Made by a program: the position numbers and the translations under genes. Below, piece after piece: positions 679 through 45,942 of a stretch of DNA of 64,000 bases (positions are counted from its first letter, which is position 1; each line of letters begins with the position of its first letter). The notes beneath the pieces are model-generated. The model was not told the DNA's origin, searched no databases, and saw only the letters and a list, made by a program, of their open reading frames with translations. The stretch comes from Chiloscyllium plagiosum (taxonomy: Eukaryota): contig NC_057753.1 of assembly GCF_004010195.1 (NCBI RefSeq), positions 12,170,842 to 12,234,841 of the forward strand, in the 5' to 3' direction.

Positions 679-694
679 CAACTAGATGGCAGTG
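679..694 (+). promoter_or_regulatory. CTCF-like motif upstream of V1
   Basis: CAACTAGATGGCAGTG, about 260 bp 5' of the V1 ATG; present at the same position in all four paralogs. Confidence 0.5.
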
Positions 695-941
695 TGAATC
701 TGGGATAAATATTGACGACGTCGGCTGAAGGAGGAGTGACCTTCCAGACATTGAGCAACTTTCAATGTGAGAGGCTTGTTACAGAAACAAACACCAAGAC
801 TAAGCGTCTTCTGCAACTCCAATAGGAAGGCTTGTCTGCGATAGACGTCAAAATTTACTTGTGCAAATGTAACAATTGCGTCCAGTTCCTCAACAGAGCC
901 TTGCGGACAATTGTGTCTGCCACTGCTCTTGCAATCTGATA

Positions 942-1275
942 ATGTTCCGAATTTGCAGAGTCCTTCTGATGTTTTCCACTCTGACTTCCACGGATGTGAC
1001 TGGAGCAGGCGATGTCACGCAACTTCCTCCGTGGATGGTTGTTAGTGAAGTGGGAATTGTGTCCATGAATTGCTCCATTATCACTATGTCGGACGCAATA
1101 CACTGGTACAGACAGGTCCCGAATCAGCCACCCCAGCATCTGGTGATGGCCAAAAGGGAAAATGATCAGCCCGAGAGGATCACTGCTTCAATCAGTGGAG
1201 ATTACAAAATCAGCACCCTGACTGTGAAAGACGCCAGACTTAATGACACAGCAATCTATCTCTGTGCAATGAAGA
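942..1275 (+). CDS. TCR alpha/delta-type V gene segment V1, leader fused to V in one exon
   Basis: MFRICRVLLMFSTLTSTDVTG signal peptide runs in frame into AGDVTQLP...NC...WYRQ...DTAIYLCAMK, followed directly by an RSS. Confidence 0.9.
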
Positions 1276-1314
1276 CACAGTGTGACACACTGATGGAGAG
1301 CGTGTACTAAAACC
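1276..1314 (+). other. 23-RSS of V1
   Basis: CACAGTG + 23 bp + ACTAAAACC. Confidence 0.92.
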
Positions 1315-1739
1315 AGCACAGAGTGGGAGTTCCAGTATGGTGAGTTTGAAGTATCAGTGTTACTAATTCTGAGCGCCAAAATCTGAGACAATGGAAATAA
1401 CAGCAAAATACACCAGAAAGTATGGAACAGGTTAATTTAAAGATGGTCAAAAGTGAAGACAATTGGAGATGCGGATGGAGGTGAAGGAAGTATATGTTGG
1501 CAAACATGGAAGAGTGATGGAGAAATGGAAAAGTGGAGAGATACTTTAATAATACTTGCAGAGGGCAGAACGATGAGAAACGATTGAAGAAGAAATGGAA
1601 GAAAGAGAAAAATAACAAGGATGATGTGAAAGATCAGGTCAAATCACAGTAGAAGGAGACATGAAGGAAAAATAGTGGAATTTCCTTTAATGCAATGTAA
1701 CTTCACCGAATCTCCCACTGTCTACCTCGTGCGGGTTTC

Positions 1740-2960
1740 AAAGAATAAGAACTCAACTGGACACAACGCAGAAACTAGGATGAGTGCAGCGAGTAACATA
1801 TACTTCCTGCCTCCTGAAAGCCTGTCCACCGTCGACAAGGCACAAGTCAGTAGTGTGATGGAATACTCCCCACTTGTCTGGATGAGTGCAGCTGCAAATA
1901 ATCTGGAGATTCTTGACACCATCCAGGACAAAGCAGCCCGTTTGATTGGCACAACATTCACAAGCATCTACCGCCATTTAGCTAAGATCCTCAGATAGCA
2001 CCTTCCAAACTTGCAACCACTTCCACCTGCAAGGACAAGGATCAGCAGACATATGGGAACACCGCCACCTTAAAGATTCCGTCTCAGCCACTCACCATTG
2101 TTCTGGACTAGGCCAGTCCGCTCAAAACATTCTTAAGCAGGCAGCCCAGACCCAAAACTTTATAATGTGCTTCGATAAGCGACCAGTGAAATTTACACGC
2201 AGTAAGTTAGCGAGGTTGACTACCAGGTTTTAAAACAGGCAAAACTGTCTTCACAAAATTACGGAATGAATCACAAAGAAGAGAATATGGATGACCCACC
2301 GTAGTCAGTCTATCCAAACTAAATTAATTATGCTTTTCCGAATATACACAACAGTCCCAACAGACAACCCCCTTCAACAGAGAGTAAAATGAAACAGAGG
2401 TTTTCAGATCGAAGTTAAAAGGGCGAAGGAAAGAGAGATTAGCAGCCTGTTTCCAAACAGTCCACTACTGCGAACCTGACTAACACCAAGAATTCAGCTT
2501 CCTGGACTGACCATTACCCTTTCATAATACAGGCCACTTCTAAAACAATAAAGCTTTGGCCTAAAGTCTTATTTGTTTACGTATAAACAAAAAGGCCACC
2601 TCCCGCCCTCCACACCACAAAATCCTTTTCATCTCTGTACCAATTAAGTCGATTCGGAGCCCAGACTGTTTTACAGAAACTCTGAAAAAAAAAAGCCAAG
2701 GACACAGGTTGAGAACAGGAACAGCTTGTAGAAAAATGAACACCTTCGTGACACCATCCTGACTTGAAAATATATGGCCATTCCTTCAATGGGTCTGTGT
2801 AAAAATCTTGGATTTCCATCTGTGGCATTGTGGGTCAACCCACGGCAGGTTGACTGCAGTGGTTCAAGTAGGCAGCTCATCACCACTTTCTCAAGGGCAA
2901 CTAGGAATGGGCAATAAATGCTGGCTAGCCAGGGATGGCCACGTCTCACAAATGGATAAA
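1740..2960 (+). mobile_element. CR1/L2-like LINE 3' fragment, interrupted by a solo LTR
   Basis: Degenerate RT C-terminus (KAQVSSVMEYSPLVW...LDTIQDKAARLI). The same repeat occurs at about 4990-5650, 41700-42170 and 44230-44820. Confidence 0.6.
2099..2753 (-). mobile_element. Solo LTR with 4-bp target-site duplication
   Basis: TG...CA ends (TGTTCTGG...TTCGTGACA) flanked by CCAT at 2095-2098 and 2754-2757. Removing it restores the host repeat (CTCACCATCCTGACTTG). Confidence 0.75.
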
Positions 2961-3964
2961 TAAGTAAAAATATCATTAGTTATACAATCTAAGCATAGTC
3001 CACACAGTATGGCAGCGGGGCATTTGGCCCACCCAATCTCAGTTGGTCATCACACCAGATCGACCCTCACCCGACATCTCGTGTTGCTAATATTCCTGTC
3101 TGATCCATTATTGGACTGTGGGAGAATTCCGGAGCAAATATAGGAAACTCATGCAGACAGAGGGAAAACTTGTAAATTTCACGCAGACTGTCACCTGAGG
3201 CTGAAATCGAACCTGGCTCTTTGGTGTTTGGAGACAGGAGTGCTAACCGCTGAGCCAGCACAGCGACAGCACGCGAATGCTTCCTTGAATTCATGATTTG
3301 GTATTGCCGCACTCAGAAAGTGTTCATTTCTTGGCGCTGTAAATTTCCTTGAGATCTCGCCAGAGTACGATATAGTCACACTCACTGGGACCGTCTCTAA
3401 CGTGGTCTTCTTGTGAGCTGTTTGAATCATCAAGGCCACTTGCCTTCTCGTTTACTTTTGTGTCATCTATGGTACATTCACTTCAATCAGGATTTGGTTG
3501 GTCTGCTGACATGTATCTCTGCTCTTCCACCATTCCCAGTAAAATGAAGGAGGCTTTACAACAAAACGTTTCCTTTTTCTTTAGAATATTTAGTTGCCTT
3601 GTATGGGCGCTGCTGGCAATGCTCGACATCTGACACACTGCAGGGCATCTGATATAAACACAGCAGTTACGTGTACAATGAGACACGGTAAAGTTAACTA
3701 ATTCCGGTCACAATGGATCGTTTCAGTCAGTGCAGGAGCAAAAACATTTGATTTCACTGTTTCACTCATTGGAAATTTCGTTGCGGAATAAAGACTTGGT
3801 TACGAAGCAGTCTGAAATCGGTGGACGTTGCTCATGAATTTGAAATGCAGGGTCTCGCCTGTTCACAGTATTATACGGAGAAGGAGGCCACGTCTGTTGT
3901 TTTGAGCGGTATCCAGTGAACTGCAACTGGTGTGAGAGTTTGAAGATTGCAATTACTTATCAAC

Positions 3965-3982
3965 ACCACTAGATGTCAGTGC
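3965..3982 (+). promoter_or_regulatory. CTCF-like motif upstream of V2
   Basis: ACCACTAGATGTCAGTGC at the position homologous to the V1 motif. Confidence 0.5.
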
Positions 3983-4241
3983 GAATCCATGATAAATATC
4001 GAAGATGAGGGCTGGAGCAGGGGTGAACTTCCAGACAATGTGAACCACTGTCAGTGTGAGAGGCTTGATACAGAAGCACACACCAAAATTCAGATTCTTC
4101 AGCAACTCTACCAGGTTAAACGTGAGTTCGTCGTCAACCGTGCACTTTTCTAGTTATTTACTTGTATAAGTATAATAATTAATTGCAGTTCATCAACAAA
4201 ACTACATGGACAATTGCTTTCACCAATGTTCTAGCAATCAG

Positions 4242-4578
4242 ATGATGTTCCGAATTTGCAGTGTCCTCCTGCTGATTTCCACTCTGATCTCCGAGGAGGT
4301 GACTGGAGAAGGCGAATTGAAGCAACTTCCTCCCTGGATGGTTGTGACTGAACTGGGAATTGTGTCAATGAATTGCTCTTTTGGCACTACATTTAACACA
4401 GTGCGTTGGTACAGACAGCTCCCGAATCAGCCACCCCAGCATCTGATGATGGCGAAAAGGGAAGCTAACCCATCCGAGAGGATCACCGCTTCGATCAGTG
4501 CAGACGACAAAGTCAGTGTCCTGACTGTGAAAGACGCCAGACTTAATGACACCGCCACTTACCTCTGTGCAGAGAGGG
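4242..4578 (+). CDS. TCR alpha/delta-type V gene segment V2, leader fused to V
   Basis: MMFRICSVLLLISTLISEEVTG-EGELKQLP...NC...WYRQ...DTATYLCAER; open frame; RSS follows. Confidence 0.9.
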
Positions 4579-4617
4579 CACAGTGTCACAACAAGTGGTT
4601 GAGACTGTACTAAAACT
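4579..4617 (+). other. 23-RSS of V2
   Basis: CACAGTG + 23 bp + ACTAAAACT. Confidence 0.92.
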
Positions 4618-5990: not shown

Positions 5991-6490
5991 NNNNNNNNNN
6001 NNNNNNNNNNNNNNNNNNNNNNNNNNNNNNNNNNNNNNNNNNNNNNNNNNNNNNNNNNNNNNNNNNNNNNNNNNNNNNNNNNNNNNNNNNNNNNNNNNNN
6101 NNNNNNNNNNNNNNNNNNNNNNNNNNNNNNNNNNNNNNNNNNNNNNNNNNNNNNNNNNNNNNNNNNNNNNNNNNNNNNNNNNNNNNNNNNNNNNNNNNNN
6201 NNNNNNNNNNNNNNNNNNNNNNNNNNNNNNNNNNNNNNNNNNNNNNNNNNNNNNNNNNNNNNNNNNNNNNNNNNNNNNNNNNNNNNNNNNNNNNNNNNNN
6301 NNNNNNNNNNNNNNNNNNNNNNNNNNNNNNNNNNNNNNNNNNNNNNNNNNNNNNNNNNNNNNNNNNNNNNNNNNNNNNNNNNNNNNNNNNNNNNNNNNNN
6401 NNNNNNNNNNNNNNNNNNNNNNNNNNNNNNNNNNNNNNNNNNNNNNNNNNNNNNNNNNNNNNNNNNNNNNNNNNNNNNNNNNNNNNNNNN
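5991..6490. other. Assembly gap
   Basis: Run of 500 N. Confidence 1.
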
Positions 6491-6830
6491 GAGAGGCAGT
6501 TCTTCTTACCTCACTACAGCACTCGATTCAAGAGATCATCTCAACTCGCTGTGCATGAGCGAGTTCACACCATGCGACACCATTCTCCCGCCGTGAGTGT
6601 GGGAAAATATTTATCACTTCATCCAAACGTTTGGCACACCAATGATTCGCCTTGTGAATAGACCACATTCCTGTCTTGAGTGGGGGAAGGGTTTCACTAA
6701 TTCATCTGAACTGCTGATGCTTCAGCGTCTTCACACTAGAACAACGCCGTTCTTATGCCCTGAATGCCCTGGGAAAGGATTCATTGTCGTTCAATCTGGT
6801 CATACAGCAACAAATTCACAAATGAGATCT
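6491..6830 (+). pseudogene. C2H2 zinc-finger array remnant
   Basis: FKRSSQLAVHERVHT and [41 protein letters not shown] in shifting frames, with lost Cys/His residues. Confidence 0.7.
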
Positions 6831-6894
6831 CATTCATATCTTCTAACACATTGTTGTATGTCTTGGCGTATACAATGAATCAAACATTTTGCAA

Positions 6895-10965: not shown

Positions 10966-11114
10966 GTGAGTATCGATCACAGAAACAAACATTGCATGAA
11001 ATTTAAAATACACTGTTGCCGATTTCGTTCACATTACAGGGATGGTCTGCAGTTTTCACTGCGTTGTATCGGTCAGTTCTAATGTCCGCTCATTTCTCTC
11101 TGTTTAATTTCCAG

Positions 11115-11401
11115 GTTATTTCAGTCAGTCAGTGACACAGAGCCCAGTAGCGGTTAATAAGAAGGAGTGTCAGTCTCTCACCATCAACTGTGTTTTTAAA
11201 AGTCGTTCTGTTCATCATTTTGAGAGTGGACATTTCTTTAGACAAACGCGGACAGCAACGGAATGGAAGCGGATCTCCAGTGGTGGGAGATTCGTTATGT
11301 TCACAGATAAAGCACAAAATTTATTTTCGTTGGAAATTCGGGATGTCAGAGTTGAAGACACCGCCACCTATTACTGTAAAGCTCGGTACCGGTACTACAC
11401 A
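11115..11401 (+). CDS. NAR-TCR V (IgNAR-like V domain)
   Basis: TTTCCAG acceptor in phase with the leader. SVTQSP...KECQSLTINC...FFRQ...KRISSGGRF...EDTATYYCKA has VNAR-like short Cys-Cys spacing with no CDR2 and a non-canonical FR1 Cys. RSS at 11402-11439 is CACAGTG + 22 bp + TCAAAAACT. Confidence 0.88.
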
Positions 11402-11741
11402 CACAGTGATGGGCCTCGGCTTCCCGTCGCTCAAAAACTCTCACTGGAGATTGTTACAGAAACAAATTGACAACTGAGCCAATCTGCCCAGAAAATCCCA
11501 CATTTCTGCTTCTCAGCTGCAAGTCAACCAATTTGCAATTAGACTGCATTATTGTTTATAAAATGTGTGTTTCACTGATAACAAGTGCGCTCTGATGGTG
11601 ATGTCTTTTTTCAAGGCTTGTGTGGGTGAATCGAAGTTAGGAATGATTGATCACAATTAAAGGAGACTGACGTGAGAAGTCTAACAACTGGAATCGGGAT
11701 TGCAAATCAGCTGTCATATCCAACTCCCAACAAGCCCTTGG

Positions 11742-12214: not shown

Positions 12215-14825
12215 GTAAGTGACTCTGCATTTCATCTTGCTATTCATTATGTTGCTGAACGATCGATTTATTTTTGTTCGTTTAAACGTGAAGAAAGTAA
12301 ACAAATATCTTAGAAAAAAATCGCTTCTGCTCCAATGCCGGAGTTGCGTGTCAGCAGAATATGCGTGTCTGGTCTTTGTTTCCTCAGGCGAAAAAAAAGA
12401 ATGACACCTGGCCCTGAGTCAGCGGTTTCGCTGTACCTGTGGTATCAGTGGCCCAGCGGGTCAATAGAGGGATACCACCAACATGGCGAACAGGTGCTTA
12501 AATGAAGGAGTGCCGACTGTCTGGAATCGATTCTACGAGTTACCTGCGACTGAGGGAGCTCCGTCTGTTGCTTAGGTCTGTGAGAAAGAACTTTGTACCA
12601 GGCAGAGATTCAAGCCCGAATTCCAAAAGTTCAACAAAAACATGTAACTCACGAGAAAATCAGAAATACTACTCAGCGAACCTCAGGTATAAGAGGTCTG
12701 GCTGTATGCCACGATGAATTATCCTATTTGAGGAATGGGTGTCAGGAATGATCGACTTACTATTTCTTTTCAATTCCTTTCATATATGCATTAATCTGAC
12801 CAATCATATTTCCATTTTACCAGCCTCTGAATTAAACGTGAAACTGTGAAGAATTTTGGTTTATTTAATGTAGGTATTTTGAGAAATCGATTTGTTGTAA
12901 TGAAGGTGCTTATTGGAATCAGTTCAAACTGAAGAATGCTCATTCGAGACAGCAAGTAACAATTCATCGAAAGGAATATTTGACAATTTCTGGGGCATCG
13001 ATCAAATTACAACTCCTCATCAAGCTGTTGAGTGAGTCATACAGAGGGAAGGGCTGGAATGGGTTCTAGCCTGAAATGATAGTTAGACATTTGTTCTCCT
13101 TAATTGAGAATGACTCGATTTGGTTTCGAGCAAGTAAAGCTACGCTTCACCAGGCATTCCCTTGGGATAGCGTTATTGTCTTCTGTGAGGGTATTCTGAA
13201 GCCTAAGCTCCATTACTTATCGTTTAAAAGAAGCAGGAGTGTTCTAATTTGAGCATATAGAATTTTAAGGGGTAGACATTAGATGGAATTTTCTCCAAAC
13301 AGGAAAGTCTAACCAACGGTCACAATTTGCGATTCAGGGACAGCAATTTGGACGACGAAGAGCAGAATGTTTTTCAGACGAACAATTGCCTTGAATTATT
13401 GGCATTCTGCATCTCAGAAAGCAGTGGAGACCCAAACGTTAACTGTTTCCACTGGTTCTGTTTTATTGGGGAAAAAACGAAGCATGAAGACACTTCATGA
13501 AAGTCTTAAATACGATGGCCTCGAAACTGGGATGAATGAGACTGAAATGTGAGTAATAGGCCACTAGCAGAACAAATAAAGTAATGAAGGTGAAGAAATG
13601 TGCAAAATGTGGAACTTGCCACAAGAGTAGTTGGAGCACATTGTATTGAGTCATTTATAGAACGTTTTGAAATCACAGGGAGGAGAATGGAATACATCCA
13701 CACAGTGTGTTGAATGGGCAATGTTAATTAGATTTCGGGCAGAAGTGAACTTTGGCATAAATGAACAGCCATAAATCAGTTTGGCTGAATGACCTTGCCT
13801 TCATATTTTAATGTAAAACTGAAAAGATTTCCACCCAGAATACAATAATTCAATCAAAGTAGCTGAAATTGAGGGAGATCTGAAAGATAGTTCCCAGTGT
13901 GCAACAGTCAAACAATCCCAGAAACAGGACAGACAGAACTCAACAGACAGCTGAGGTATTGGTGCAAGTTGCCAGGATTGCAAGAAAACAAAAAGGCGCA
14001 AAGGAAAGTCGAAGAAGAAAGTGACCTGATTGGGGAAAAGTTTGATCAAAAGTCGTGTATGCTCTCATGAACAGAGGAAACGTGCAGACAACGATTGAAC
14101 TAATCGGTGCTGATCAAACCCTATTTTGGATCCTGCTGTGCATGGTGCCGCACCATCGTTTGGTTACTTCTGCGTGGTTAATTTTGCAAATTTATTATAG
14201 AGTCACAGTGTCATGCAATTGATCAGGTTTCCCAAACCAACGTTGTCCATTTGCCTGTGTTTGGCCTGTATCTATTTCAACATTTCCCGCCTGTCATACG
14301 TTTCCAAATGATTTTTACCTGATTTCACTGTACTTGTCTCTAAGGACTTATCACTACACTTGGCAGTTAATTCCATATACGCACCACGCTCTCTGCAAAA
14401 CACTCCCTTTTAAATCATTCCCCTATCACCTTAAACATATGCCCTCCAGCTTCCAAGATAATCACTGGAGTTTGTCTGTCCGCCGAGTATGTGAATGCTG
14501 GCTTCTTCAGAATCTTTTATAATTGTTCCTACTGTACTTGCATTCTCCGCATAGCCCTTCATTGTCCGCCTGATTCAGCTGCTGTTGATTCCCCATTTGA
14601 ACTTTATTGTTAAATCACTTTCCAGCCCCCTTTTTGGCAATTTATTGCACGTCACAAGAAGAAGGTATGTAAAAGAAAGTGTCACCTGAACGCCTCATTT
14701 CTTCATATTCCGATAGAACAGAACAGATTCAAATCTAATGTCAACAAAGCGAACAGAATAATTCCTGTGCTTCGCAATTTATCTTTTCAACAGAGGCTGA
14801 ATAAATGTTCAATATCATCCCGCAG

Positions 14826-15133
14826 GTTTCTTTTCTCTCGTGTCCCAGAGTCCAAACCAACAAACCTCTGCTGTGGGTGACACCATTGCTTTAAGCTGTG
14901 AATACACAGGGTTCTGTCAGTACACAGTTTACTGGTACTGTCAGTCCCCAGGACAAGCTCCGAAATACATGCTTCAAAAATACACCTCAGGAGAGCAGGA
15001 TAAAGAAAATGCTGCAGGCGGGCGAATTTCTGCTCTCATTGATGCTGCGGCGAAAATCGCTTGGTTAATGATCTCGCAAATACAACAAGTGACTCCGCTG
15101 TGTACTACTGTGCACGAAGTGGCGCTCAGCACA
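14826..15133 (+). pseudogene. Leaderless supporting TCRdelta V of NAR-TCR, frameshifted
   Basis: CGCAG acceptor in phase with the J donor. FFSLVSQSP...LSCEYTGFCQYTVYWYCQ carries an extra CDR1 Cys. A 1-nt deletion near 15086 precedes SDSAVYYCARS. RSS at 15134-15172 is CACACTG-23-ACAAAAACC. No ATG-bearing leader exon was found upstream. Confidence 0.82.
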
Positions 15134-15420
15134 CACACTGATACACAGTGCGGAGAGAACTGCACAAAAACCTGAACACGCTGGGAATTACGGACAGTGT
15201 CACAGATCACGGAGACAGCTCAAAATACATGAACATGGGGTGATTGCAGACATAATGATACACAGCACAGAGAAAGCTTTCAAAAAAAAGGCTACTCGTG
15301 GTCGATTATACTGTGATAGTCACAGTACCACAGCACGGAGAAACCTGCACAAGATACTGAACATGGTCAGGTTACAGACAATCAGCGTCACAGAGCGTAG
15401 AGACAGCAGTACAAAATCAT
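15134..15420 (+). repeat. Tandem array of five degenerate RSS-like units (about 60-70 bp period)
   Basis: Recurrent CACAG..(C)GGAGA..(A/T)CAAAA..TGAACA units starting at about 15134, 15193, 15251, 15321 and 15381. Confidence 0.65.
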
Positions 15421-19787: not shown

Positions 19788-21246
19788 ATGCATGGCCCAG
19801 CGAATGTCTCGTTCTATGCCCTGTATTATTCAGCTCTTGCTACTACTGGTGTCCCTGGTAAGTAACAGATTCTAAGTATTTGTTTTTAAGTGCAACAAAG
19901 TATTTTCTATTAAATTTCAGGATCGTCCTTTTTTTCTGATAGTCACCGTTGAAGGGAACAGCCTAGATCACTATGTATATGTAACTATTGAGTTATACTA
20001 ACCTGCACGCGTTTGCAGTGCACAGCAACATTATATCCAAACTGTTATATTGAGCAACTATAGAACAATTGGTTATTGGATTATTGATTTGTGAATTGCA
20101 ATGTGTGGCATTGCATGAATAATAATAATCAGATTAACTGCAAAAAATTAAATTCTATTACGATGCTGGAACCGTCAAGCTGTTGTTTTGTCTATTGTCT
20201 GGAATAATGCACTATCATTGTGTTCGATGTTTCTATGCACAGATACTATGATAATTCTGAAGAAAATTATTGCAGATACGTCATTATTTTAAAGATTAAA
20301 AGTATATCTAGTGATTACTCAAGTCAGTTCAAAATTGGTTTGCAGTTTCCCCCAGCCAACCTGCTGGTGATCGCCATACTATTACGAGGACCATGCGGAT
20401 TCTCTGGGTGCACCACTTTTTACTTGGTGGGGATAGGAGTGAGCGATTTTCTTGTGATCATCACTTGGTGCATCCTGAATCGGATTGGCGACATTTACTT
20501 CCGACACAGTGCCCTGTCCACGACCACTGCCTGCGCAGTCAGCACCGTGATGATCTATACCAGCCGAGATGGCTCAGTCTGGGTAACTGTGACATTCACG
20601 GTTGCCCGTGGTCACCTGCTACCAGAGTCTGAAGGCAAGTTACTGCGCCGAGAAAGCTGCATCACTGGTCATTGGAGTGGTTTGTGCTTTGAGCTGCATC
20701 AAGAAGCCTGCCTTCTGAATTCTTCGCCCAGCCCTTGTGCACTGTGGATGGGGAGTCCTGGTTCTGTGACTTCAGAGACACGTATTACAACTCACCTGCA
20801 TGGACGCCCTATGACTGGCTGAATCACGCCTTGACGCCTATTCTCCCGTTCCTACTTATTCTGCTGCTCAATGCCTTGACTGTCAGATTCATCTTGGCGG
20901 CCAGCAGTGCCCGAAGGAGGCTCCAGGACACAGCAAGCCACGGAGACTCGGAGATGGCCAACCGTAAGAGGTCCATCATATTGCTTTTCACCATCTCGCT
21001 CAGCTTCCTCCTTCTATGGGTCACCATGTCAGGCGCTTCCTCTATGTACGGGTTACTGGTGAGGCATACTTCAGTGGCTTGGACTTCACTGACCCACAGT
21101 TTATTCTCCAAGAAACGATGAACATGCTGTAAATACTAAGTTCCTGCAAAAACGTCTTCATTCATTCAATATCCCAGAACAAGTTCAGAGATGAACTGAA
21201 GAAGGTGTTGTTGTCTCCCTCCACATCTCCCGCTGGGTGCAAATAA
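19788..21246 (+). pseudogene. GPR139/GPR142-like class A GPCR pseudogene (exons 19788-19857 and 20356-~21246)
   Basis: Exon 1 MHGPANVSFYALYYSALATTGVP/GTAAGT. Exon 2 ANLLVIAILLRGPCG...YLVGIGVSDFLV...PFLLILLLNALTVRFILAASSARRRL...RKRSIILLFTIS, with frameshifts and a stop. Confidence 0.8.

Positions 21247-24093: not shown

Positions 24094-24094
<1 letters not shown>

Positions 24095-24125
<31 letters not shown>
24095..24125. repeat. (AT)n microsatellite
   Basis: Direct reading. Confidence 0.9.
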
Positions 24126-29367: not shown

Positions 29368-31819
29368 GTTCACAGTTACTGATCAAACTGTCCACCTATT
29401 TATTTTCTACTCAATTGTCACTGCTATCGGTGCCCCTGGTAAGTCACTGATGTTCGAGAAACTCGATTACCTATTCGTGTATTTCCAGAGGTTTATTCCT
29501 TATCTTTCCAGGATTCAGTAGAATTTTCCTGAACTGCAACTCTTTGATTTTAAAGCACTTCAACAGATCTACAGGCCGTATAAAACATCATGAAATAATA
29601 CCTGCAGCAAACTTATAGAAAAATGGTCTATGAAAATTGAGAACTGCGTTGAATCACAATGCATGAACATTAAACAGATTGCGTTAAAATCCAATTCAGT
29701 AAACTGCAATTTGGTCCATTGTAGGATGATTGGTTTAACATAGTGTGGTAAAATGCCTCTCTGCAAGGCTTTCATTACAGTATCTAAATATGAATTACTT
29801 TGTGGTTGTACTTTAGAAGACATTTTGTAATATAAAGCTATGTTCACTGATTAAACGAATCTACAGCATGTGCCGTGCAGGGGGTGTAATAAAGTGTAGA
29901 GTTCCCAAAGGACAATAGAATCGTTAATGTGGTCTTAGGACTTATTGAAGTTTAGTCTCAAAGACGTCAATATCGATGCAATATTTTTGAACTTTTGTTA
30001 GTTTGCTTTTCTGCTGTGAATTCTCTCAAATTTCAAATCATTATATTTTCAATAATTTACCAAAAAGATGTTATCCTCAATAATGAGAACGCGCAGTTCC
30101 ACCTCATCTCAAATTATCTCACTGCATCCAGCAAGCACCAGATCAATGTGGCAAACTAATTTAGTTTTGAGGAATATGAAATATTGACAAATGCTTTGAC
30201 CAAAGGAACGTCTGAATGAAGAGAGCAAAAGCCGAGCTGCTCAGGTGGTAATTCCAACAATTTGGGTTTTAGTCATTAAATCTATAACAACACATTTTGG
30301 AATATTAAATTGAGGGATGCACAGGACATAGAATCAAACTTAATATGATATTTTAGACAGTTGTATGATGCCGCGTGAATGGAATTCACTAGTGTCGGGA
30401 GCATCTGAAAATTTGAAGGATGAGGTTGCAAAGAGTGAGACATCTCTGGAAGGATCCAATGTCGGTCAACATTTATGGGTTAAAGGCTGGCCCGTGCTTG
30501 ATATGAATATGTTCATGTCAGCCGCATTATTTTTGTTGTTGCGAATTGAACAAGTAGCTACTTGGCACTACCTCAGTGACTGGAGAGCGATTTTGTTTTC
30601 CTGGACTGATCACATTGACAGATGATGTGGTGGTGATATGTAAGACGGGTGGAGAAAGTCAGACGGGACAGTAGACCTGGTTATTGTCCAATGGGTTTGT
30701 TTAAAATAAGAAGATTTTGGACTGCTATTCCATCGTAAGGTGCATCGCAAGATGTTTAATGCTGCACTGGATGTCTAATAATTGTCAATGTTTTCAAAAA
30801 TAAGGTGGACACTGGAAGTGCCAAGGTGATAGTTGAAGGCTGTTCTGTGCAATATTTCACGAAGATTCAGACAAAGTTTCGATTGAGTTCAGTAATGTCT
30901 CATTTGGTTTTACACAGCCAATTTGCTGGCGATCATAATTCTATTGCGAGGACGGTGTGGTCTCTCAAGGTGTATCACCTACTACCTGGTGGCGATCGCT
31001 GTGAGTTAATTCCTTGTCATTACTACTGCAGTCATCCTCAATCGAATCAGCCGCATCTATTTTCAGAAATGTCTCTTCTCCGCCAATCCTGCGTGCACTC
31101 TCAGTGTCGTATTGGTCTATGCCACTCTGGATTGCTCGGTGTAGCTGACAGTGGCCTTTACCATCGATCGCTCTGCAGCCATCTGCTATCAGAGACAGAA
31201 GACCAGATACAGCAATGAGAAGACTGCATTACTGGTTATAGAAATGATCTGTGTTCTGTGTTGCGTCAAGACCATCCCTTTGTACTTTGCATTCCAGCCC
31301 TTGTTCATTTTGGAAGGGGTATCATGGTTTTGCAACATCAAAGCCAGCTTCTATACCTGGCCAGTCTGGCAGGTATATGATTGGCTGTTTCGCATCATGA
31401 CGCCTTTTCTCCCATTCTTTGTCATTCTGCTGCTAAACATCCTTAACATAAGACAATTCATAGCGGCCAACAGAGCTCGCAGGAGGCTCTGGGGTGGCGA
31501 GAATCGACAAGATCCAGAAATGGCGAACCGTCAAAGGTCCATTGTCTTGCTGTTTGCCATCTCTCTCAGTTTCCTCCTCATGTGGTCCCCTGTTGTTGAA
31601 CATTTTATCTATGTGCAGCTGAAAGCTAAGAGCGACTTCGATGGACTGGATTTCAGTAACCCGAAGTACACATTTGAAGAGAGCACCAACATACTCCAGT
31701 TACTTAGTTCCTGCAACAACGTCTTCATCGAAACGGTCTCACAGAATTTATTTCGAAAGCAGATGAAGAAAGTTCTGATTTACCCCTTCGTCATTCTCGG
31801 CAGACATTTTAAAAGATGA
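29368..31819 (+). pseudogene. GPR139/GPR142-like GPCR pseudogene (exons ~29368-29438 and 30918-31819)
   Basis: Exon 1 ...IFYSIVTAIGAP/GTAAGT has lost its ATG. Exon 2 reads ANLLAIIILLRGRCGLSRCITYYLVAIAVS*...DCSV*LTVAFTIDR and continues through TM7 (ORF 31151-31819), with two in-frame stops. Confidence 0.82.
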
Positions 31820-33687: not shown

Positions 33688-35088
33688 ATGCATGGCCCAG
33701 CGAATGTCTCGTTCAATGCCCTGTATTATTTAGAACTTGCTACTACTGATGTCCCTTAGTCGGTAACACATTCTAACGATTTGCTTTTAAGTTCAACTAA
33801 GTAGTTTCTATTAAATTTCACGATCGTCTTTATTTTCTGATAGTAACCGCTGAAGGAAACTCAGCCCAGATCACTATGTATATCCAAAATATTGAGATGT
33901 ACTAAATTGCACGCGTTTGCAGTGCACAACAACATTATACCCAGACTGTTATTCTGAACAATTAAGTCACAATTAGTTATTAGATTATTGGTTTGTGAAT
34001 TTTAATGTGTGACATTGCCTGAATAATATTCAGATTAACTGCACAAAATTAAATTTTACTGCAATGCTGGCAACGTCAAGCAGCTGTTTTTGCTAATGTC
34101 TGGAATAATGCACTATTGTGTTCAATAATTTTATGCACAGATGACATGATGATCCCAAAGAAAATTATTGCACATGCGTCATTATTTTAAAGATTAGAAG
34201 TGTATCTTGTGATTACTCAAGTCAGTTCAAAAATTCTTAGCACTTTCCCCCAGCCAACCAGCTGGCGATCATTATACTATTACGAGGATCGTGCGTACTC
34301 TCTGGGTGCACCAACTTTTACTTGGTGGGGATAGCAGTGAGCGATTTTCTTGTGATCATTACTGGGTTCATCCTGACTCAGATAGGCGGCATTTAATTCT
34401 TACACAGCGCCCAGTCCGTGACTACTGCCTGGGCAGTCAGCACCATGAGAATCTAAGCCAGCGGAATGGCTCAGTCTGGCTGATTAGTATTCACCATCAG
34501 CCGTTTCGTGACTCTGAGGACCAGGTACTGCACCGAGAAAATGTATCACTGTTCATTGGAGTGGTTTTCGTCCTGAGCTGCATCATGAACCTGCCTTCAG
34601 ACTACTTCTACTAGCCCTTGTACATTGTGGACTGGGTGTTCTGATTCTGTGACTTCAGATACTCGTCCTGTAATTCATCTGCATGGAAGTCGTATTACCA
34701 GCTGAATCACATCTTGACGCTTTTTCTCCCCTTCCTCCTTATTCTGCTGCTCAGTGCCGTGACTGTCAGATACATCTTGGCAGTCAGTAGTGCCCGAAGG
34801 AGGCTGCAGGTCCATCATACTGCTCTTCACCATCTCGATCAGCTTCCTACTTCTGAGGGTCACCTTTTTGTCGGGCGCTTCTTCTATGTGTAGGTTACAG
34901 GTGAGGAATACTTCAGTGGCTTGGATTTCACTGACTCACAGTTTATTCTCCAAGAAACGACGAACATGATGCAGATACGACGTTCCTGCACAAACGGCTT
35001 CATTTATGCAATATCCCAGAACAAGTGTCGAGATGAACTGAAGAAGGAGTTATTGTCTCTCTTCACATCTCTCGCTGAGTGCAAATAA
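33688..35088 (+). pseudogene. GPR139/GPR142-like GPCR pseudogene, paralog of 19788-21246
   Basis: ATGCATGGCCCAGCG exon 1 with a stop and damaged donor; exon 2 from 34254 has multiple deletions and stops. Confidence 0.78.
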
Positions 35089-39197: not shown

Positions 39198-39236
39198 AGT
39201 TTTTGTACAGGGTCAGCCCAGTTCTCATTCTCTGTG
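39198..39236 (-). other. 23-RSS of V3
   Basis: Minus strand CACAGAG + 23 bp + ACAAAAACT. Confidence 0.88.
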
Positions 39237-40048
39237 GGACGCAGTGCGCAGTAATACACTGCGGAGTCTGTTTGTTCTGTACTCAACACATTCAGCTTGA
39301 TAGTGCGGTTCACAGGATCAAAATTCCAGGAAAGCCGGCCCAGTAGAAAGCTCCCCTTTTTCTCGCTGTATTGGTCTTTCTGTAGCAGAAACTGCACGGA
39401 TCCGTTGGAAGGTTGACGGTACCAGTACAGGTCAGGATTGCTGCTTGTTGTAGTGTAATTACAGAACAACAGCACATCGTCCCCCTCATTCAGTTTGATT
39501 GCAGCCGGTGTTTGTGAGACTGAATCGCCATGACAAAGTCCTGGAAGAGCCAGGAGTTATACAAAATTAAATAAGACACGACAATATACTTAACGTCCAT
39601 AATTCGCCCATGTATATTCATCAATAAACCGATAAATAAATGAGGGAAGTCAAACTAGATTCCATTTCATATGGGGTGATCATTGCCCATTTCATCTCGC
39701 GAAACCTGTAGCGAAACATGAAAACTGTTGGTGGATATAAAACTATCCCCTCGGTAAAATCATCTAAATTGCCTTAGTCCTGCCTGGATTTACACCCTGA
39801 CTTTTCCATTGCCAATGGCTCATCTACATTCGCTAATTTCTGTCAGACTCTGCTCATTGTTGGGGCAAGTTTAGATCCAGATTTTTTTTTTAATTGGGAG
39901 AAAGTATTGTTGCTTCTATGTTGCGCAAGGTGCTTGAATAAAATTCAATTCTCAGCAAAGAGCTGAAGCACATACATAGACAGGTGTTCAACCTACCAGT
40001 TAGAAGAGCTGCAGTTGCGAGGAGTAATCCCAGAGCTCCTGGTAACAT
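39237..40048 (-). CDS. Conventional two-exon TCR alpha/delta V gene V3 (leader 39997-40048, V exon 39237-39540)
   Basis: Leader MLPGALGLLLATAALLT/GTAGG and acceptor TTCCAG. V exon GLCHGDSVSQTP...FCNYTTTSSNPDLYWYRQ...DSAVYYCALRP is an open frame. Confidence 0.9.
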
Positions 40049-42570
40049 GTTTGCAGAGAGTTCACGGTGAATGTGAACAGAACTGGCTGAAGCTAAAATG
40101 GTTCTCGTCAAGAGTTGGGTAATTCAGGTTGAGTAATTTCCGGACCTCTGCTCGTTGGACCATTGTTGGCAAAGGCATCGTGTGAAAGCCAATGAGTACC
40201 AGGCTCCTTTGTTCTTCAGATGAGCCAATCAGCTTCAAGCTCATTTGAGCCCCACTTCATATTATGATTGATGTGATAAACTAACAAAGTTCAGAATACG
40301 GGTTACTGGATCTGGAAAGTTCACTCAGTTTTCTCATCACAGTTGCTGCCAGACCTGCGCCATTCTCCGGTTGTTTGTTTTTGTCTTGGATTTCCAGCAA
40401 CTGCGGTTCTTTGTTATTTTTGTTTCACCAACTGGCGTGATTAGAATCAGGTGGATCTCATTGACTATGAGTTCTTTCATTGGGATTGTTAAATCGATGG
40501 AGCCCTGGGCAAAAGGTAAACATACGAGATTTTGAGTCGCCTCACATCAGAGACAGACTCCAAACAGACTAGCCATGGCCAGTGTCCTGTCCACATATAA
40601 ATGAAGGGTGACCTGGTGACTAAATTTCAGTCTCTGTGCAGTTATTTCAAGAGCAAAGTAAATTTGTTCATCTATAAACAATGGTAAGGACAGAGATTAA
40701 ACCAAACGTTGTCCCACATCCATTATTATTTCTGTAAGCATTTATACAAATGGGAATTCGTTCATCCTGTTCGAGTATGAGAACTGTTGGTCTTAGACAG
40801 TCCCATTAGCTGATGCGTAGGACCAGTGAGTCTGGGACATTCTGATATAATCATGAGGAAATAAATAAATAAAATTTAAAAAAATGTTACAGTACAATCG
40901 AATGATGCATTTCCTGGTATGATACGTTGCAACTGCCTTTCATTAACTTTACTTTGTGCCATCGTAAACATAACTCCTGCATGAGTATCAAATACGCTGC
41001 AGTGCATCAAACACACAGCTCACCGCCACATTGTCTCAGATTATACAAGACTAACTGATTTCTCACAGAAAACAAAAGATAATCTGTCAATTCATTTGAT
41101 TGGGAATGGTGAAAGGGCAGAGGTGCATGCTTACGCAAATTCCAAATCCTGACTAATGTCAGTGTATGATTACCAGGTTTGCAAGTGACACGAAAATAAG
41201 TAACATGGCAATTGGTAATGATTATGACTTAAAGAGTCTCTTGAAAGACAAAGTCACAGACTGTTTCAAAGAGTGTCACTATACCATACTCGGGCGAGAT
41301 CTCCAGGAAATTTTCAAAAAAGAAATAAACAATTCATGAGTGGGAGGAAAAGCAAATCGTGAATTTTCATCTGCCATTCTCAAGATGATGGCACGGTGGC
41401 TCAGTGGTAAGCACTCGTGTTTCTTAAAACCAAAGACCCACGTTCGATTTCAGCCTCAGGTGGCTGTCATAATGGGGCCTGCACGTTCTCTCTATCTCTG
41501 CATGGGTTTCCTGTGGTTTTTCTGTTTTCCTCGCACAGTCCAAAGGCGGGCAGCTTAGGTAACTTAGATGTGGGAGATGCAGGGGGATGTTGTATCTAGA
41601 TGTGATGTTCTTCAGATGCTTGGTGTGGTCTCGATGGACCGAATGGCGTGCATCCACGCTGCAGGCATTCTGTGGTTAGATTGTTTATATATTGACCTTT
41701 ATTAAATGTCGTTGTTGGCAGGCTGTAGGCACAGCTGTCTGGCCAGCATTTATTACCTGTCCGAAGTTGTTCTTGTGAAGGTGGGAGTGAGCTGCCTTAT
41801 TAAACTGCGGCAGTTCACCTGCTCTGGGTTGACCTACAATGCCATTGGGGGGACGGAATTATCCGTTTTTGAACAAGTGAATTCCGATCAATGCTCTGCC
41901 AATCAAACAGGCTGCATTGTCCTGGGTGGTGTCAAGAATCTAAAGAGTTGTTGGAGCTGCACCCATCCAGACAATTAGTGAGTATTCCATCACAACACTG
42001 AGTTGGGCTTTGTAGATGATGGACTGGCTTTCGGGAGACAGGAAGTATATGTAACTCCCCGCATTAATCCTAGTCACTGACCTGCTCTTGTTGCTCCTGC
42101 GTTTCCGTGTTGTGCCCAGTTGAGTTTTTAATCATTAAAACCCGCACGAAGTAGACAGTGTCAGTTTCGGTGAAGTTAACGTGGCGTTAAAGGACATGCC
42201 ACTATTTTACCTTCATGTTTCCTCCAACCGTGATTTGACCCGATCTTTCACATCATCCTTGTTATTTTTCTCTTTCTTCCGTTTCTTCTTCAACCGTTTC
42301 TCATCGTTCTGCCTTCTGCAAGTATTATTAAAGTATCTCTCCACTTTTCCTTTTCTCCATCACTCTTTCAGTTTTGCAAACAAGTACTTCCTTCACCTCC
42401 ATCCCCAAACCCAATTGTCCTCACTTCTGACTATCTCTAATTTAATCTGTTCCATACTTTCTGGTGTATTTTGCTCACTTTTCCATTATTTTCCATTTTT
42501 CTTGGTTGGTGTCAGAATTAGTTGCAAAGAAACTTCAAAAGTAAGCATACTGGAACTCCCATTCTGTGCT

Positions 42571-42609
42571 GGTTTTAGTACGCGCTCTCCATCTGTTTGT
42601 AACACTGTG
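42571..42609 (-). other. 23-RSS of V4
   Basis: Minus strand CACAGTG + 23 bp + ACTAAAACC. Confidence 0.92.
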
Positions 42610-42943
42610 CCTTCATTACACAGAGATAGATTGCAGTGTCATTCAGTCTGGCGTCTTTCACAGTCAGTGTACTGAGTTTGTAGTCTCCACTGATTGAAGC
42701 AGTGATCCTCTCGGGCTGATCATTTTCCGTTTTGGCCGTCACCAGATGCTGGGGTGGCTGATTCGGGACCTGTCTATACCAATGCATTGCGTTGGACATC
42801 GTGGCAATCGAGCAATTCATGGACACAATTCCCACTTCACGAACAACCATCCACGAAGGACGTTGCGTGACATCGCCTTCTCCAGTCACATCCCTGGAGG
42901 TCAGAGTGGAAAACATCAGGAGGATTCTGCAAATTCGGAACAT
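42610..42943 (-). CDS. TCR alpha/delta-type V gene segment V4, leader fused to V
   Basis: MFRICRILLMFSTLTSRDVTG-EGDVTQRP...WYRQ...DTAIYLCVMK; closest paralog of V1. Confidence 0.9.
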
Positions 42944-43206
42944 TATCAGATTGTAAGACCAGTAGTAAAAGCAATTGTCCACGGGGTTCTCTTGAGGAAC
43001 TGGAGGCAATTGTTACATTTACACAAGTAAATATCGAGAACAATGCACGCTTGACGTCTAGCGCAGACCAGCCTTGCTGTTGGAGTTGCAGAAGAAGCTG
43101 AGTCTTGGTGTTTGTTTCTATAACAAGCCTCTGACAGTGAAAGGTGCTCACGGTCTGTAAGGTCATTCCTCCTTCAGCCGACGGCGTCAATATTTATCCC
43201 AGGTTC

Positions 43207-43223
43207 ACACTGCCATCTAGTTG
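43207..43223 (-). promoter_or_regulatory. CTCF-like motif upstream of V4
   Basis: Minus strand CAACTAGATGGCAGTGT. Confidence 0.5.
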
Positions 43224-44822
43224 CATGAAAAAATAATTGCGACATCCACATCCTCGCACCAATTACACCTCAAGCGATACTGCTCAACGAAAGCAGATAC
43301 GTCCTCCTGCCCAGAAGAAATCTGCATTTCAATTTCTTTTGCAGCATCCAACGATTTCAGAACATGTTCCTCCGGCATTGTAATCAAAGCTTTATTCCTC
43401 AAGGCCATTTTTGATGAATGAAGCAGTAGAATCGAATGCTGCTTTTGCTGCATTTACTGGGCAGATATATTATAATCGCAATTATTTAACTTTACTTTGT
43501 CTTATTGTAAATGTAACTCCTATAACTATATCAGATGCACTGCAGGTTGTCAAGTAAATGGCTCATGGCCACATTGTTCTGGACAATTAGAGGAAGGTGT
43601 CAGCATTGTGAGCCACTCCCATACAGGATTGCCAAATGATTTAAAAGGGAAGAAAACACAAATTGGTAAAGTCTCCACCATCTGAAAGGGAATAGTGTAA
43701 GACCAGAGGTACATGACAACGTGGGAACCAAATCCTGATACGTTTACAGATGACACAAATATAAATGGTAAGTGTTGATGATTCAGAGTCCATAAGAAGA
43801 CCAGGTTATCACCTGCTCCAGTGAGTGTGACAAATGCGTACTCTGATGAGATCTCTTGTAATTTTGCAGCACCAAGAAATGAGTAATTTATGAGTTAGTG
43901 GAATACCAAATCATGAATTTCCAGGAAGCATCCCAAAAATGATGGCATTGTGGCTCAGTTGTTCGGACTGCTGCCAAACAGCACCAAATACCCAGGTGCT
44001 ATTTCAGCTTCAGGTGTCAGTCTGCACATTTTCCCTGCGTCTGCATCAGTTTCCTGCAGGTGTTCTGGAATCGTCCAATAATCCAAACGTGTAGCTGAAT
44101 TAGCCAGAGGAGGAGATGCAGGGATAGTTTGGGTGTGTTTTCCTTCAGAGACTCGATGGTTCCAATACCCTGCAGCCATTCTGTCGGGATTCTATGTTTA
44201 GAGTGCTAAAACTTTTTTTCAATTTGTGAGATGTGGGCGTCGCTGGCTTGCCAGTATTTATTGCCCATTCGTAGTACGTTTTAAGGATTTTGTAGCGAGC
44301 TGCCGTCTTGAAACGCTGCAGTCCACGTGCTGTCTGAATACGCATAATGCCATTGGGCAGGGATTTCCAGGATTTTCAATAAAGGACAGTGATGGAACGC
44401 TGATATATTTCCGCGGTAAGACGGTGATTGGCTTCGACGGGAACTTGAAAGTGGTAGTGTTCCCATATATCTCCTGGCCCTGGAAGTGTTTGTGGGTTGG
44501 GAAGGTACTTTCGAACGATCGTTGGTAAACCTCTGCAGTGAAACTTGCAGGTAGTGCACACTTAGTGGCACACTTAGGAGAGGGAGTGGAAGCCTGTGGA
44601 TGCTGTGCAAATCAAATGGACTGTTTTTTCTTGGTTGGTGTCAAGATTCTTGAGTATTGTTGGGGCTTCACACAGTCAGGCAGGTATAGAGTATGCCATC
44701 ACACTCCTAAATTGTACCTTGTAAATGTGGGCACTCCTTGGGCAGTCAGGAAGTACGTTACTCGCCACAATAATCCGAGCCTCTGACCTGCTCTTGCACC
44801 CATTGCGTTTATGTGGTGAGTC

Positions 44823-45032
44823 ATTAGATTAGATTAGATTATTTACAGTGTGGAAACAGGCCCTTCGGCCCAACAAGTCCACACCGACCCGCCGAAGCGC
44901 AACCCACCCATACCCCTACATTTACCCCTTTAACCTAGCACTACGGGTAATTTTAGCATGGCCAATTCACCTGACCCGCACATCTTTGTGACTGTGGGAG
45001 GAAACCGGAGTACCCGGAGGAAACCCACGCAG
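44823..45032 (-). mobile_element. HE1-like SINE, 5'-truncated
   Basis: (AGATT)n tail, then the reverse-complement SINE body; closely similar to 37570-37800. Confidence 0.78.
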
Positions 45033-45285
45033 CTGCCCACTGCAAGTATTATTAAAGTATCTCTATACTTTCTTTTCTCTCTATCATTTTTCTGATTTCC
45101 AAATATACACTTCCTTCACCCCCATCCGTATATCCAATTGTCTTCACTGCTGACCATCTTTAACTTTAGCTGCTCCACACTTTCAGATGTATTTTGTTCG
45201 CATCTCCCATATCTCGGCTTTTGGGGCACAGAATTAGTAACAAATATACTTCAAAATCAACATATTGGAGCTCCCAATCTATGCA

Positions 45286-45324
45286 GGTTTTAGTACACGC
45301 TGTCAAGCTGCTGGTGACACTGTG
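45286..45324 (-). other. 23-RSS of V5
   Basis: Minus strand CACAGTG + 23 bp + ACTAAAACC. Confidence 0.92.
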
Positions 45325-45658
45325 CCTTCATTGCACAGAGGTAGGTAGCGGTGTCATTAATTCTGGTGTCTTTGACAGTCAGGGTACTGGTTTTGTAATC
45401 TCCACTGATTGAAGCGGTGATCCTCTTAGGCTGATCATCATCACTTTTAGCCATCACCAGATACTGGGGTGGCTGATCAGGGAGCTGTCTATACCAATGC
45501 ACGTTGGTAGTTGTTCTTGCAAAAGAGCAATTCATGGACACAATGCCCATTTCACGAACAACCATCCAACGGGGGAGTTGCTTCACTTCACCTTCTCCGG
45601 TCACCTCCGTGGCCATCAGAGTGGAAAACATCAGGAGGATTCTGAAAATTTGGAACAT
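45325..45658 (-). CDS. TCR alpha/delta-type V gene segment V5, leader fused to V
   Basis: MFQIFRILLMFSTLMATEVTG-EGEVKQLP...WYRQ...DTATYLCAMK. Confidence 0.9.
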
Positions 45659-45923
45659 TATCAAATTGCAAGAACAGTGGTGAAAGAAATTGTGCACGTA
45701 TCTCTAGTGAGGAATCAGAGAGAAATTTTATTTTTATAAGAGTACATACCTGGAATAATGCATGCTTTATGTCTAACTCAGAACCGCCTTCCTGTTAAAG
45801 TTGCAGAAGAAGCTGAGTCTTGCTTTTTGTTTCTGTAATACGCCTCTCATACTCACAGTTGCTCACAATGTCTGGAAGGTCACTCCTCCTCCAGCCCTCA
45901 ATTTCAATATTGAGCACAGATTC

Positions 45924-45942
45924 GCACTGCCCTCTAGTGGCC
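45924..45942 (-). promoter_or_regulatory. CTCF motif upstream of V5
   Basis: Minus strand GGCCACTAGAGGGCAGTGC, a near-consensus CTCF core. Confidence 0.65.

What the first reader, a model, noticed from the sequence alone, without database searches (positions are those of the whole stretch)
679..45942. Oriented CTCF-like motif about 260 bp upstream of every intronless V gene
Seen: CAACTAGATGGCAGTG (679), CCACTAGATGTCAGTG (3966), CAACTAGATGGCAGTG (43223, minus) and GGCCACTAGAGGGCAGTGC (45942, minus). Each sits at the same distance from its V ATG and flips with the gene. Known: mouse Tcra/Tcrd V promoters carry CTCF-binding elements that shape cohesin loop extrusion and V usage. Inference: V-promoter CTCF architecture may already exist in sharks, which would make it an ancestral jawed-vertebrate feature of translocon TCR loci.
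Basis: partly seen in the sequence, partly recalled or inferred. Interest (0 to 1): 0.7.

Follow-up and report, generated by a model that had tools for sequence, protein, structure and literature searches.

The report
CTCF sites before shark V genes
One family of T-cell-receptor gene segments in this shark-type genome carries a conserved two-part sequence motif for the chromosome-folding protein CTCF in its promoter, which likely helps loop these distant genes towards their joining partners as in mice, but binding is untested and the other gene families in the cluster mostly lack it.

Summary
The four motifs are real and sit 263-282 bp before the ATG of four intronless V genes. Each is a two-part CTCF-type site: core plus upstream (ZF9-11-type) motif. 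Across 15 paralogs these two parts are conserved while the spacer between them is not (identity between clades 0.77 / 0.84 versus 0.21), and core changes favour tolerated bases (p<=5e-5, recalled matrix). The window lies 2.3 Mb upstream of D-J-C in a TCR alpha/delta locus. The site is family-specific: 16 of 21 family members versus 8 of 134 other V segments (background 5%). So it reflects one ancestral site spread by duplication, not a general V-promoter rule, and ancestry with mammals is untested. The strand flip may be an assembly artefact. A second, dispersed element (likely old transposon ends) supplies CTCF-type sites facing inwards around D-Jdelta-Cdelta, placed like mouse INT1/2 and TEA. 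No binding data were found. The scan earlier noted RSS-side CTCF motifs in other shark TCR loci; I found no promoter-side note.

The parts
661..694 (+). Promoter CTCF-type site 1: upstream motif (C)GCAAT 661-666, variable spacer, core 679-694; 263 bp before ATG
   Evidence: (13.8 bits)
942..1314 (+). Intronless leader+V gene 1 (family F0) with 23-spacer RSS 1276-1314
   Evidence: (Pfam V-set)
3948..3981 (+). Promoter CTCF-type site 2: TGCAAT 3948-3953, core 3966-3981; 279 bp before ATG
   Evidence: (14.8 bits)
4245..4617 (+). Intronless leader+V gene 2 with 23-spacer RSS 4579-4617
42571..42943 (-). Intronless leader+V gene 3 with 23-spacer RSS 42609-42571
43208..43241 (-). Promoter CTCF-type site 3: core 43223-43208; 280 bp before ATG
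   Evidence: (12.7 bits)
45286..45658 (-). Intronless leader+V gene 4 with 23-spacer RSS 45324-45286
45925..45958 (-). Promoter CTCF-type site 4: core 45940-45925, strongest in the window; 282 bp before ATG
   Evidence: (22.6 bits)
49366..49410 (-).
   Evidence: (18.7 bits)
11108..11439 (+). V segment of another family (split leader); no CTCF-type site upstream: internal negative control
14801..15172 (+). Frameshifted V pseudogene of another family; no site upstream
39198..39556 (-). V segment of another family; no site upstream

Best explanation
The motifs are conserved two-part CTCF-type sites in the promoter of one intronless TCR alpha/delta V family, spread by gene duplication, that likely bind CTCF and would anchor cohesin loops between these distant V genes and oppositely facing sites next to D-J-C. 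Shown: sequence, position, conservation footprint, family restriction, orientation, locus map. Inferred from mammalian work: CTCF zinc fingers 3-7 read the core and 9-11 the upstream motif, finger 8 bridging the free spacer; a bound site facing D-J-C stalls loop extrusion and, with the adjacent promoter, brings the V near the recombination centre (as for mouse Trbv1). Since V genes here lie on both strands (72 +, 83 -), contact followed by diffusion is likelier than one-way RAG scanning. In the 13.40-13.53 Mb part of the locus the family sits once per repeated multi-gene cassette, so one site may serve the neighbouring V genes of other families as well.
For: Geometry: upstream motif 12 bp before the core equals the published CTGCAGTTCC + 5/6 bp linker + 3 bp layout (PMC12885311, passages); lamprey ChIP-seq shows this two-part mode in all vertebrates (PMC5504073, passages); shark CTCF has 11 fingers (PMC7471279, passages). 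Footprint over 15 intact paralogs: parsimony changes per column 1.07 core, 1.4 upstream motif, 3.27 spacer, 1.79 promoter background, 0.95-1.39 codon positions; between-clade identity 0.77, 0.84, 0.21, flanks 0.51/0.62, coding 0.72; conserved-gap-conserved contrast ranks 1 of 289 promoter positions. The 14 distinct core substitutions cost -1.9 bits on average against -4.3 for all possible ones, p<=5e-5 also with transition bias. 14 of 15 intact members on contig C44 keep a site of 12 bits or more, 2 of 6 pseudogenes or fragments do. The core+flank pattern hits only this family's promoters, 15 of 15 genome-wide, and none of them matches the dispersed-element profile. 14 of 16 sites face D-J-C. 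Around D-Jdelta-Cdelta 4 of 4 hits upstream are + and 4 of 4 between Cdelta and the first Jalpha are -. Skate TAD borders show the CTCF orientation code (PMC10115646, passages). Mouse Trbv1 precedent: PMC10772921, passages.
Against: No occupancy, accessibility or contact data. The scoring matrix is recalled, and hits exceed the random-sequence expectation about 3- to 5-fold in every region, including C and D, which hold no intact family gene, so p-values from the matrix are too small. The core is only among the best promoter blocks (15-nt window rank 16 of 376); other blocks near -387, -208 and -157 are as conserved, so another factor could explain part of it. Three of the four window sites have a non-preferred base in the core (12.7-14.8 bits). 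One intact member (L020) has lost the site by deletion and two pseudogenes on C44 keep strong sites (24.9, 15.9). Other families lack a promoter-proximal site. In mouse, locus contraction was not much reduced by CTCF deletion (PMC7696796, passages). Whether the family is expressed was not shown.
Confidence: 0.65

Rival explanations
1. CTCF binds, but acts locally: it insulates or positions nucleosomes at this family's promoter, or separates neighbouring cassettes, and plays no special part in long-range V-to-J contact.
For: Sites with the upstream motif are typical of enhancer-blocking insulators (PMC12885311). In 7 cassettes at 13.40-13.53 Mb the promoter site forms a divergent pair with a second-class site 2.0-3.8 kb away, a boundary-like layout. 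Most V genes of other families have no such site yet are intact.
Against: 14 of 16 sites, and all family members in mixed-strand gap-free pieces of regions A and B (12 of 12), face D-J-C, where reverse sites lie; in region A the second site is in tandem, not divergent.
Confidence: 0.2
2. The block is a conserved promoter element read by other transcription factors, and the CTCF likeness is incidental or vestigial.
For: Several other promoter blocks are equally conserved; conservation runs on past the core into GAATC; matrix hits are common in this locus.
Against: Substitutions track CTCF-tolerated alternatives; the two conserved parts are separated by exactly the free linker that CTCF finger 8 bridges.
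Confidence: 0.1
3. The site is a neutral passenger: a chance or transposon-borne motif upstream of one ancestral V gene, copied by recent duplication.
For: All copies descend from one; second-class sites in the same locus are copies of a dispersed inverted-repeat element; two pseudogenes on C44 keep the site.
Against: The spacer is randomised between clades (0.21) while both motif parts stay at 0.77-0.84; the promoter site is found nowhere outside the family and does not match the element's profile.
Confidence: 0.05

Closest known systems
CTCF sites upstream of mouse Tcra/Tcrd V promoters (PMC5859386, passages and section 21)
   Same: Same locus type; site upstream of V promoter; most such sites face J-C.
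   Different: Mouse has 144 bound sites for 131 V genes, 129 facing J-C; here the promoter-proximal site belongs to one family (16 of 21 versus 8 of 134), array-wide hits are balanced (64/62), V genes lie on both strands, and binding is unmeasured.
Mouse Trbv1 promoter CBE (PMC10772921, passages)
   Same: CBE beside the promoter of a far-distal V, convergent with sites at the recombination centre.
   Different: Single gene, TCR beta, function shown by mutation; here a multi-copy family, function inferred.
Mouse INT1/INT2-TEA loop (PMC4995090 passages; PMC5859386; PMC7696796)
   Same: Two two-part forward sites near the last V (C44:14,521,627 and 14,525,325) and two two-part reverse sites between Cdelta and the first Jalpha (14,579,288 and 14,589,449, the latter about 1.5 kb before Jalpha1) bracket D-Jdelta-Cdelta over 54-68 kb (mouse 80 kb).
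   Different: The shark sites match a dispersed element's end profile (15.5, 39.6, 38.0, 48.7 bits), so independent origin is open; one forward site lies upstream of the last V; no contact data.
Two-part CTCF site, core plus upstream (U/M2) motif (PMC12885311; PMC5504073)
   Same: Core consensus and 12-bp offset of the upstream motif.
   Different: The family's upstream part reads GCAAT/CAAT rather than TGCAGT in most copies; one copy (L013) has it displaced by a 6-bp insertion.
Chicken TRAV1 single-exon leader+V genes (PMC10972964, passages)
   Same: Leader and V in one exon in a TCR alpha V family.
   Different: Orthology not tested; that paper does not mention CTCF.

Membership tests
Two-part CTCF binding site | Core matching the CTCF consensus | tested here: met
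   0-1 mismatch to the IUPAC core in 4 of 4 window sites; 12.7-23.2 bits in 15 paralogs; consensus and matrix partly recalled, core confirmed against PMC12885311
Two-part CTCF binding site | Upstream motif at 11 or 12 bp with free linker | tested here: met
   12-bp offset in 4 of 4 window sites; identity 0.84 against linker 0.21; genome-wide, 15 of 25 strict two-part matches have 11-12 bp, 6 have 10 bp, reversed-pattern control 0
Two-part CTCF binding site | Purifying selection that follows CTCF base preferences | tested here: met
   paralogs of one genome only
Two-part CTCF binding site | CTCF occupancy in vivo | not testable with these tools
   no ChIP run was listed; no evidence either way
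Mouse-type Tcra/d V-promoter CBE architecture | Locus is a TCR alpha/delta translocon | tested here: met
   155 V-like loci, one D with 12/23 RSS, 10 J, a C1-set exon, then 105 J, all D-J-C on +; the Cdelta label is by position; Calpha not found
Mouse-type Tcra/d V-promoter CBE architecture | Sites upstream of many V promoters across families | tested here: not met
   8 of 134 non-family V have a same-strand hit within 1.2 kb, background 4.8%; 18 of 134 have a second-class copy within 2.5 kb, 7 of them at 12 bits or more
Mouse-type Tcra/d V-promoter CBE architecture | Strong orientation bias towards J-C over the V array | tested here: not met
   64 + / 62 - at 12 bits, 18 / 15 at 18 bits; met only within the family (14 of 16)
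Mouse-type Tcra/d V-promoter CBE architecture | Convergent sites flanking D-Jdelta-Cdelta (INT/TEA-like) | tested here: met
   4 of 4 + upstream, 0 inside D-to-Cdelta, 4 of 4 - downstream; interval chosen after seeing the map; motif only
Mouse-type Tcra/d V-promoter CBE architecture | Common descent with the mammalian elements | not testable with these tools
   no other vertebrate genome held; no look-alike stretch in other scanned genomes
Mouse-type Tcra/d V-promoter CBE architecture | Effect on looping and V usage | not testable with these tools
   needs Hi-C, repertoire or mutation data
Transposon-end (MITE) derived CTCF motif | Dispersed copies with inverted partner ends | tested here: not met
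   for the promoter sites: 15 of 15 matches are family promoters; met for the second-class sites: 56 dispersed matches, inverted copies 561-617 bp apart

The most novel reading that the evidence does not exclude
The shark TCR alpha/delta locus already runs on a mouse-like CTCF loop plan: forward V-promoter anchors, plus an inward-facing pair that encloses D-Jdelta-Cdelta exactly where mouse INT1/2 and TEA sit, with the enclosing sites recruited from the ends of an old DNA transposon. Either the plan is as old as jawed vertebrates or it was built twice.
Probability: 0.3. Interest if true: 0.75.

Novelty: new member of a known kind. Interest (0 to 1): 0.52.

Why it matters
How antigen-receptor loci fold for V(D)J joining is known almost only from mice. 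A shark TCR alpha/delta locus with selected CTCF-type sites at V promoters, and inward-facing sites around the delta recombination centre, gives exact coordinates at which to test whether loop-based control of receptor assembly dates from the origin of adaptive immunity. The locus offers built-in controls: an intact family member without the site (L020), other families without it, and V genes on both strands, which speak against pure one-way RAG scanning. I found no paper on this in the held library: searches listed none joining CTCF with a cartilaginous-fish antigen-receptor locus (titles and abstract starts only; three key papers were not held).

Tried and rejected
ChIP data: one run search with the word ChIP listed no run; none listed, not none exists; no reads were laid, expression untested. 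Full-length V-J-C relatives of V1: none scored, so use with Calpha or Cdelta and the nurse-shark family name stay open. Calpha: a published nurse-shark primer found no match; motif and tblastn hunts over 14.69-14.92 Mb found none (several gaps), so an Ealpha-side site could not be placed. One search used a spacer one base too short and was repeated as (10 of 15 hits in this locus or its unplaced copies). PDB search with the C exon gave only generic Ig heavy chains. My first reading, that the INT/TEA-like sites are unique elements and point to homology with mouse, was weakened after one search suggested transposon ends and searches showed a dispersed element. The idea that promoter site and second-class site are two ends of one element was rejected: no similarity in 7 of 7 pairs, tandem orientation in region A. 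A strong hit after the J cluster (14,705,794) was set aside: its flank recurs at 14,490,868 and it lies beside LINE-like frames. Kolobok identity of the element is recalled and unproven: similarity runs past the supposed TTAA end; the preprint read does not link Kolobok to CTCF. Not held: PMC7909615, PMC3528579, PMC4575630. No supplements were read. Left out of the conservation test: near-identical unplaced copies L002, L007, L015; L020 (site deleted); pseudogenes L010, L018, L022, L023, L025. About 1.1 Mb of the V array between 12.07 and 14.92 Mb was not fetched.
Full report
Observation. The four motifs are present exactly as stated, and a pattern built from them with two mismatches finds no other site in the window. 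Each lies before an open leader+V frame with no intron and a 23-spacer RSS. Core-to-ATG distances are 263, 279, 280 and 282 bp. Three other V segments in the window, of other families, have no site (best 6.5 bits).

Where the window lies. It is G000:C44:12,170,842-12,234,841; the V1 protein finds 28 matches (150 of 259 candidates scored), 26 rows of this family including fragments, from 12.17 to 13.53 Mb and on unplaced contigs. I fetched stretches of C44 and analysed 1.664 Mb including the window, plus 100 kb beyond. They hold 155 V-like loci in 13 clusters, one D with 12/23 RSS at 14,552,203, 10 J, a C1-set exon at 14,569,291, then 105 J up to 14,693,667, D-J-C all on +. This order is that of a TCR alpha/delta translocon; the Cdelta label rests on position, and Calpha was not found. 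That the animal is a shark is inferred, not tested: IgH-like V segments in the locus fit the description in PMC12227049 (passages). The window is about 2.3 Mb from D.

Is it a CTCF site? The published two-part site is CTGCAGTTCC, a 5-bp (variable) linker, three bases, then CCACCAG(G/A)GGGGGCC (PMC12885311, passages). The shark sites fit with a 6-bp linker. In 15 intact paralogs, parsimony changes per column were 1.07 (core), 1.4 (upstream motif), 3.27 (spacer), 1.79 (promoter background) and 0.95, 1.07, 1.39 (codon positions). Between the two clades of the family, identity was 0.77, 0.84 and 0.21, against 0.51 and 0.62 for flanks and 0.72 for coding sequence. This contrast ranks first of 289 promoter positions, though the core alone ranks 16 of 376 windows. 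The 14 distinct core substitutions are milder under a CTCF matrix than random ones (p<=5e-5 with transition weights 1, 4, 8). The matrix is recalled (JASPAR MA0139.1) and could not be checked here; a plain IUPAC count gives the same family sites, with 25 hits at one mismatch or fewer in 646 kb against about 3.4 expected. Genome-wide, 25 strict two-part matches exist, 15 with 11-12 bp and 6 with 10 bp offset, none in the reversed control. Lamprey CTCF binds the same two-part motif (PMC5504073), shark CTCF has 11 fingers (PMC7471279), and skate TAD borders show oriented CTCF motifs (PMC10115646); all read as passages.

How general is it? A same-strand hit of 12 bits or more within 1.2 kb upstream occurs in 16 of 21 family members on C44 (14 of 15 intact, 2 of 6 broken) and 8 of 134 other V loci, against 4.8% of random windows (Fisher 5e-12, which overstates since the copies are related). 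The core with its flank matches 15 places in the genome, all family promoters. So this is one ancestral promoter site kept through duplication. L020 is intact but has deleted it. Fourteen of 16 sites face D-J-C; the two that do not are the window's minus-strand genes, in a gap-bounded piece whose orientation is unverified. Over the whole array, V genes (72 +, 83 -) and matrix hits (64 +, 62 -) point both ways, and mixed strands occur inside gap-free sequence. Mouse has 129 of 144 sites facing J-C (PMC5859386).

A second class of site. Other two-part sites (window 49392, minus) share a different core and a downstream flank. A strict pattern finds 56 copies genome-wide; some have an inverted partner 561-617 bp away. 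A profile trained on 11 copies from other contigs finds 55 copies in the analysed regions, none in the 5' flank, the Jalpha array or the 3' flank, and none at the family's promoter sites. They are likely old transposon ends, copied with V cassettes; 18 of 134 other V loci have one co-oriented within 2.5 kb, mostly decayed (7 at 12 bits or more). In seven cassettes at 13.40-13.53 Mb one faces away from the promoter site 2.0-3.8 kb off. Four copies stand where mouse has INT1/2 and the TEA site: 14,521,627 and 14,525,325 (+), 14,579,288 and 14,589,449 (-). All 4 matrix hits between 14.519 Mb and D are +, none lies between D and Cdelta, all 4 between Cdelta and the first Jalpha are - (1 in 256 if independent, intervals drawn after seeing the map). 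In mouse, INT2 and TEA form a convergent 80-kb loop that confines RAG (PMC4995090; PMC7696796).

Mechanism. Most likely CTCF binds these promoters with fingers 3-7 and 9-11 and stalls cohesin, so that the distant V is looped to the reverse sites near Jalpha, and joining follows by diffusion, as shown for mouse Trbv1 (PMC10772921). Binding, looping and any effect on usage are inferred. Rivals are a local insulator role, another factor's site, or neutral carry-over.

What is known. V-promoter CTCF sites are known in mouse; a single-exon leader is known for chicken TRAV1 (PMC10972964). Searches listed no paper on CTCF in a cartilaginous-fish receptor locus. Other papers seen: PMC5931798 (passages), PMC5278385 (passages, nothing used), PMC13470930 (passages), bioRxiv 2021.10.18.464293 (passages). 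The scan has eight notes on RSS-side or V-linked CTCF motifs in other shark TCR loci and none found on promoter-side or INT/TEA-like sites.

Verdict. A real, selected CTCF-type promoter element of one V family, a new member of a known kind. The claim of an ancestral, locus-wide V-promoter architecture is not shown and fails two of its tests here. The INT/TEA-like bracket is the more surprising lead, tempered by its probable transposon origin. Interest 0.52.

Noticed in passing
G000:C44:14,521,627-14,589,449 (L119, L124, L125): Inward-facing two-part CTCF-type sites bracket D-Jdelta-Cdelta at the positions of mouse INT1/2 and TEA; they match a dispersed element's end profile.
   Followed up: yes
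L189-L199, L201-L210; window 49366-49410: Dispersed element whose ends carry a full two-part CTCF-type site; 56 strict copies, clustered on C8, C48 and unplaced contigs; some inverted pairs about 600 bp apart, one pair facing inwards (L203). Family not identified.
   Followed up: partly
G000:C44:14,620,305-14,685,795: Nine reverse-strand CTCF-like cores (13.2-16.2 bits, no upstream motif) about 100 bp before one duplicated Jalpha subfamily; 13 of 15 hits in the Jalpha array are minus.
   Followed up: no
G000:C44:13,815,996; 13,973,471; 13,993,559; also V ends at 12,291,648 and 12,436,521: Same-strand CTCF-type cores 68-76 bp past the V end (just behind the RSS) in five V loci, the layout earlier notes report from other shark TCR loci.
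   Followed up: partly
G000:C44:13,187,607 and 13,890,576: Orphan copies of the family promoter keep the CTCF-type site (15.6, 20.2 bits); the V gene is truncated after the leader or gone.
   Followed up: partly
G000:C44:13.39-13.53 Mb: Repeated multi-gene cassette: intronless V (+), second family (+), two families (-), with one divergent CTCF-type pair per cassette.
   Followed up: partly
window 734-745 and paralogs (about 208 bp before ATG): Conserved AGTGAC block 55 bp past the core, resembling the CRE-like decamer of V-beta promoters (recalled, not tested).
   Followed up: no
window 20208-21121, 31145-31819, 34213-34614, 59139-59423: Several broken rhodopsin-type GPCR genes lie among the V segments (7tm_1 for two of them).
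   Followed up: no
G000:C44:14,245,955-14,351,810: Nine IgH-like V segments inside the TCR alpha/delta V array, near the D-J end.
   Followed up: no
G000:C44:14.716-14.725 Mb: Broken retrovirus-like gag/pol/env pieces just beyond the Jalpha array; observed only.
   Followed up: no
window 15134-15172 and 1276-1314: A heptamer-like sequence inside the 23-bp spacer gives a nested 13-spacer RSS-like signal.
   Followed up: no
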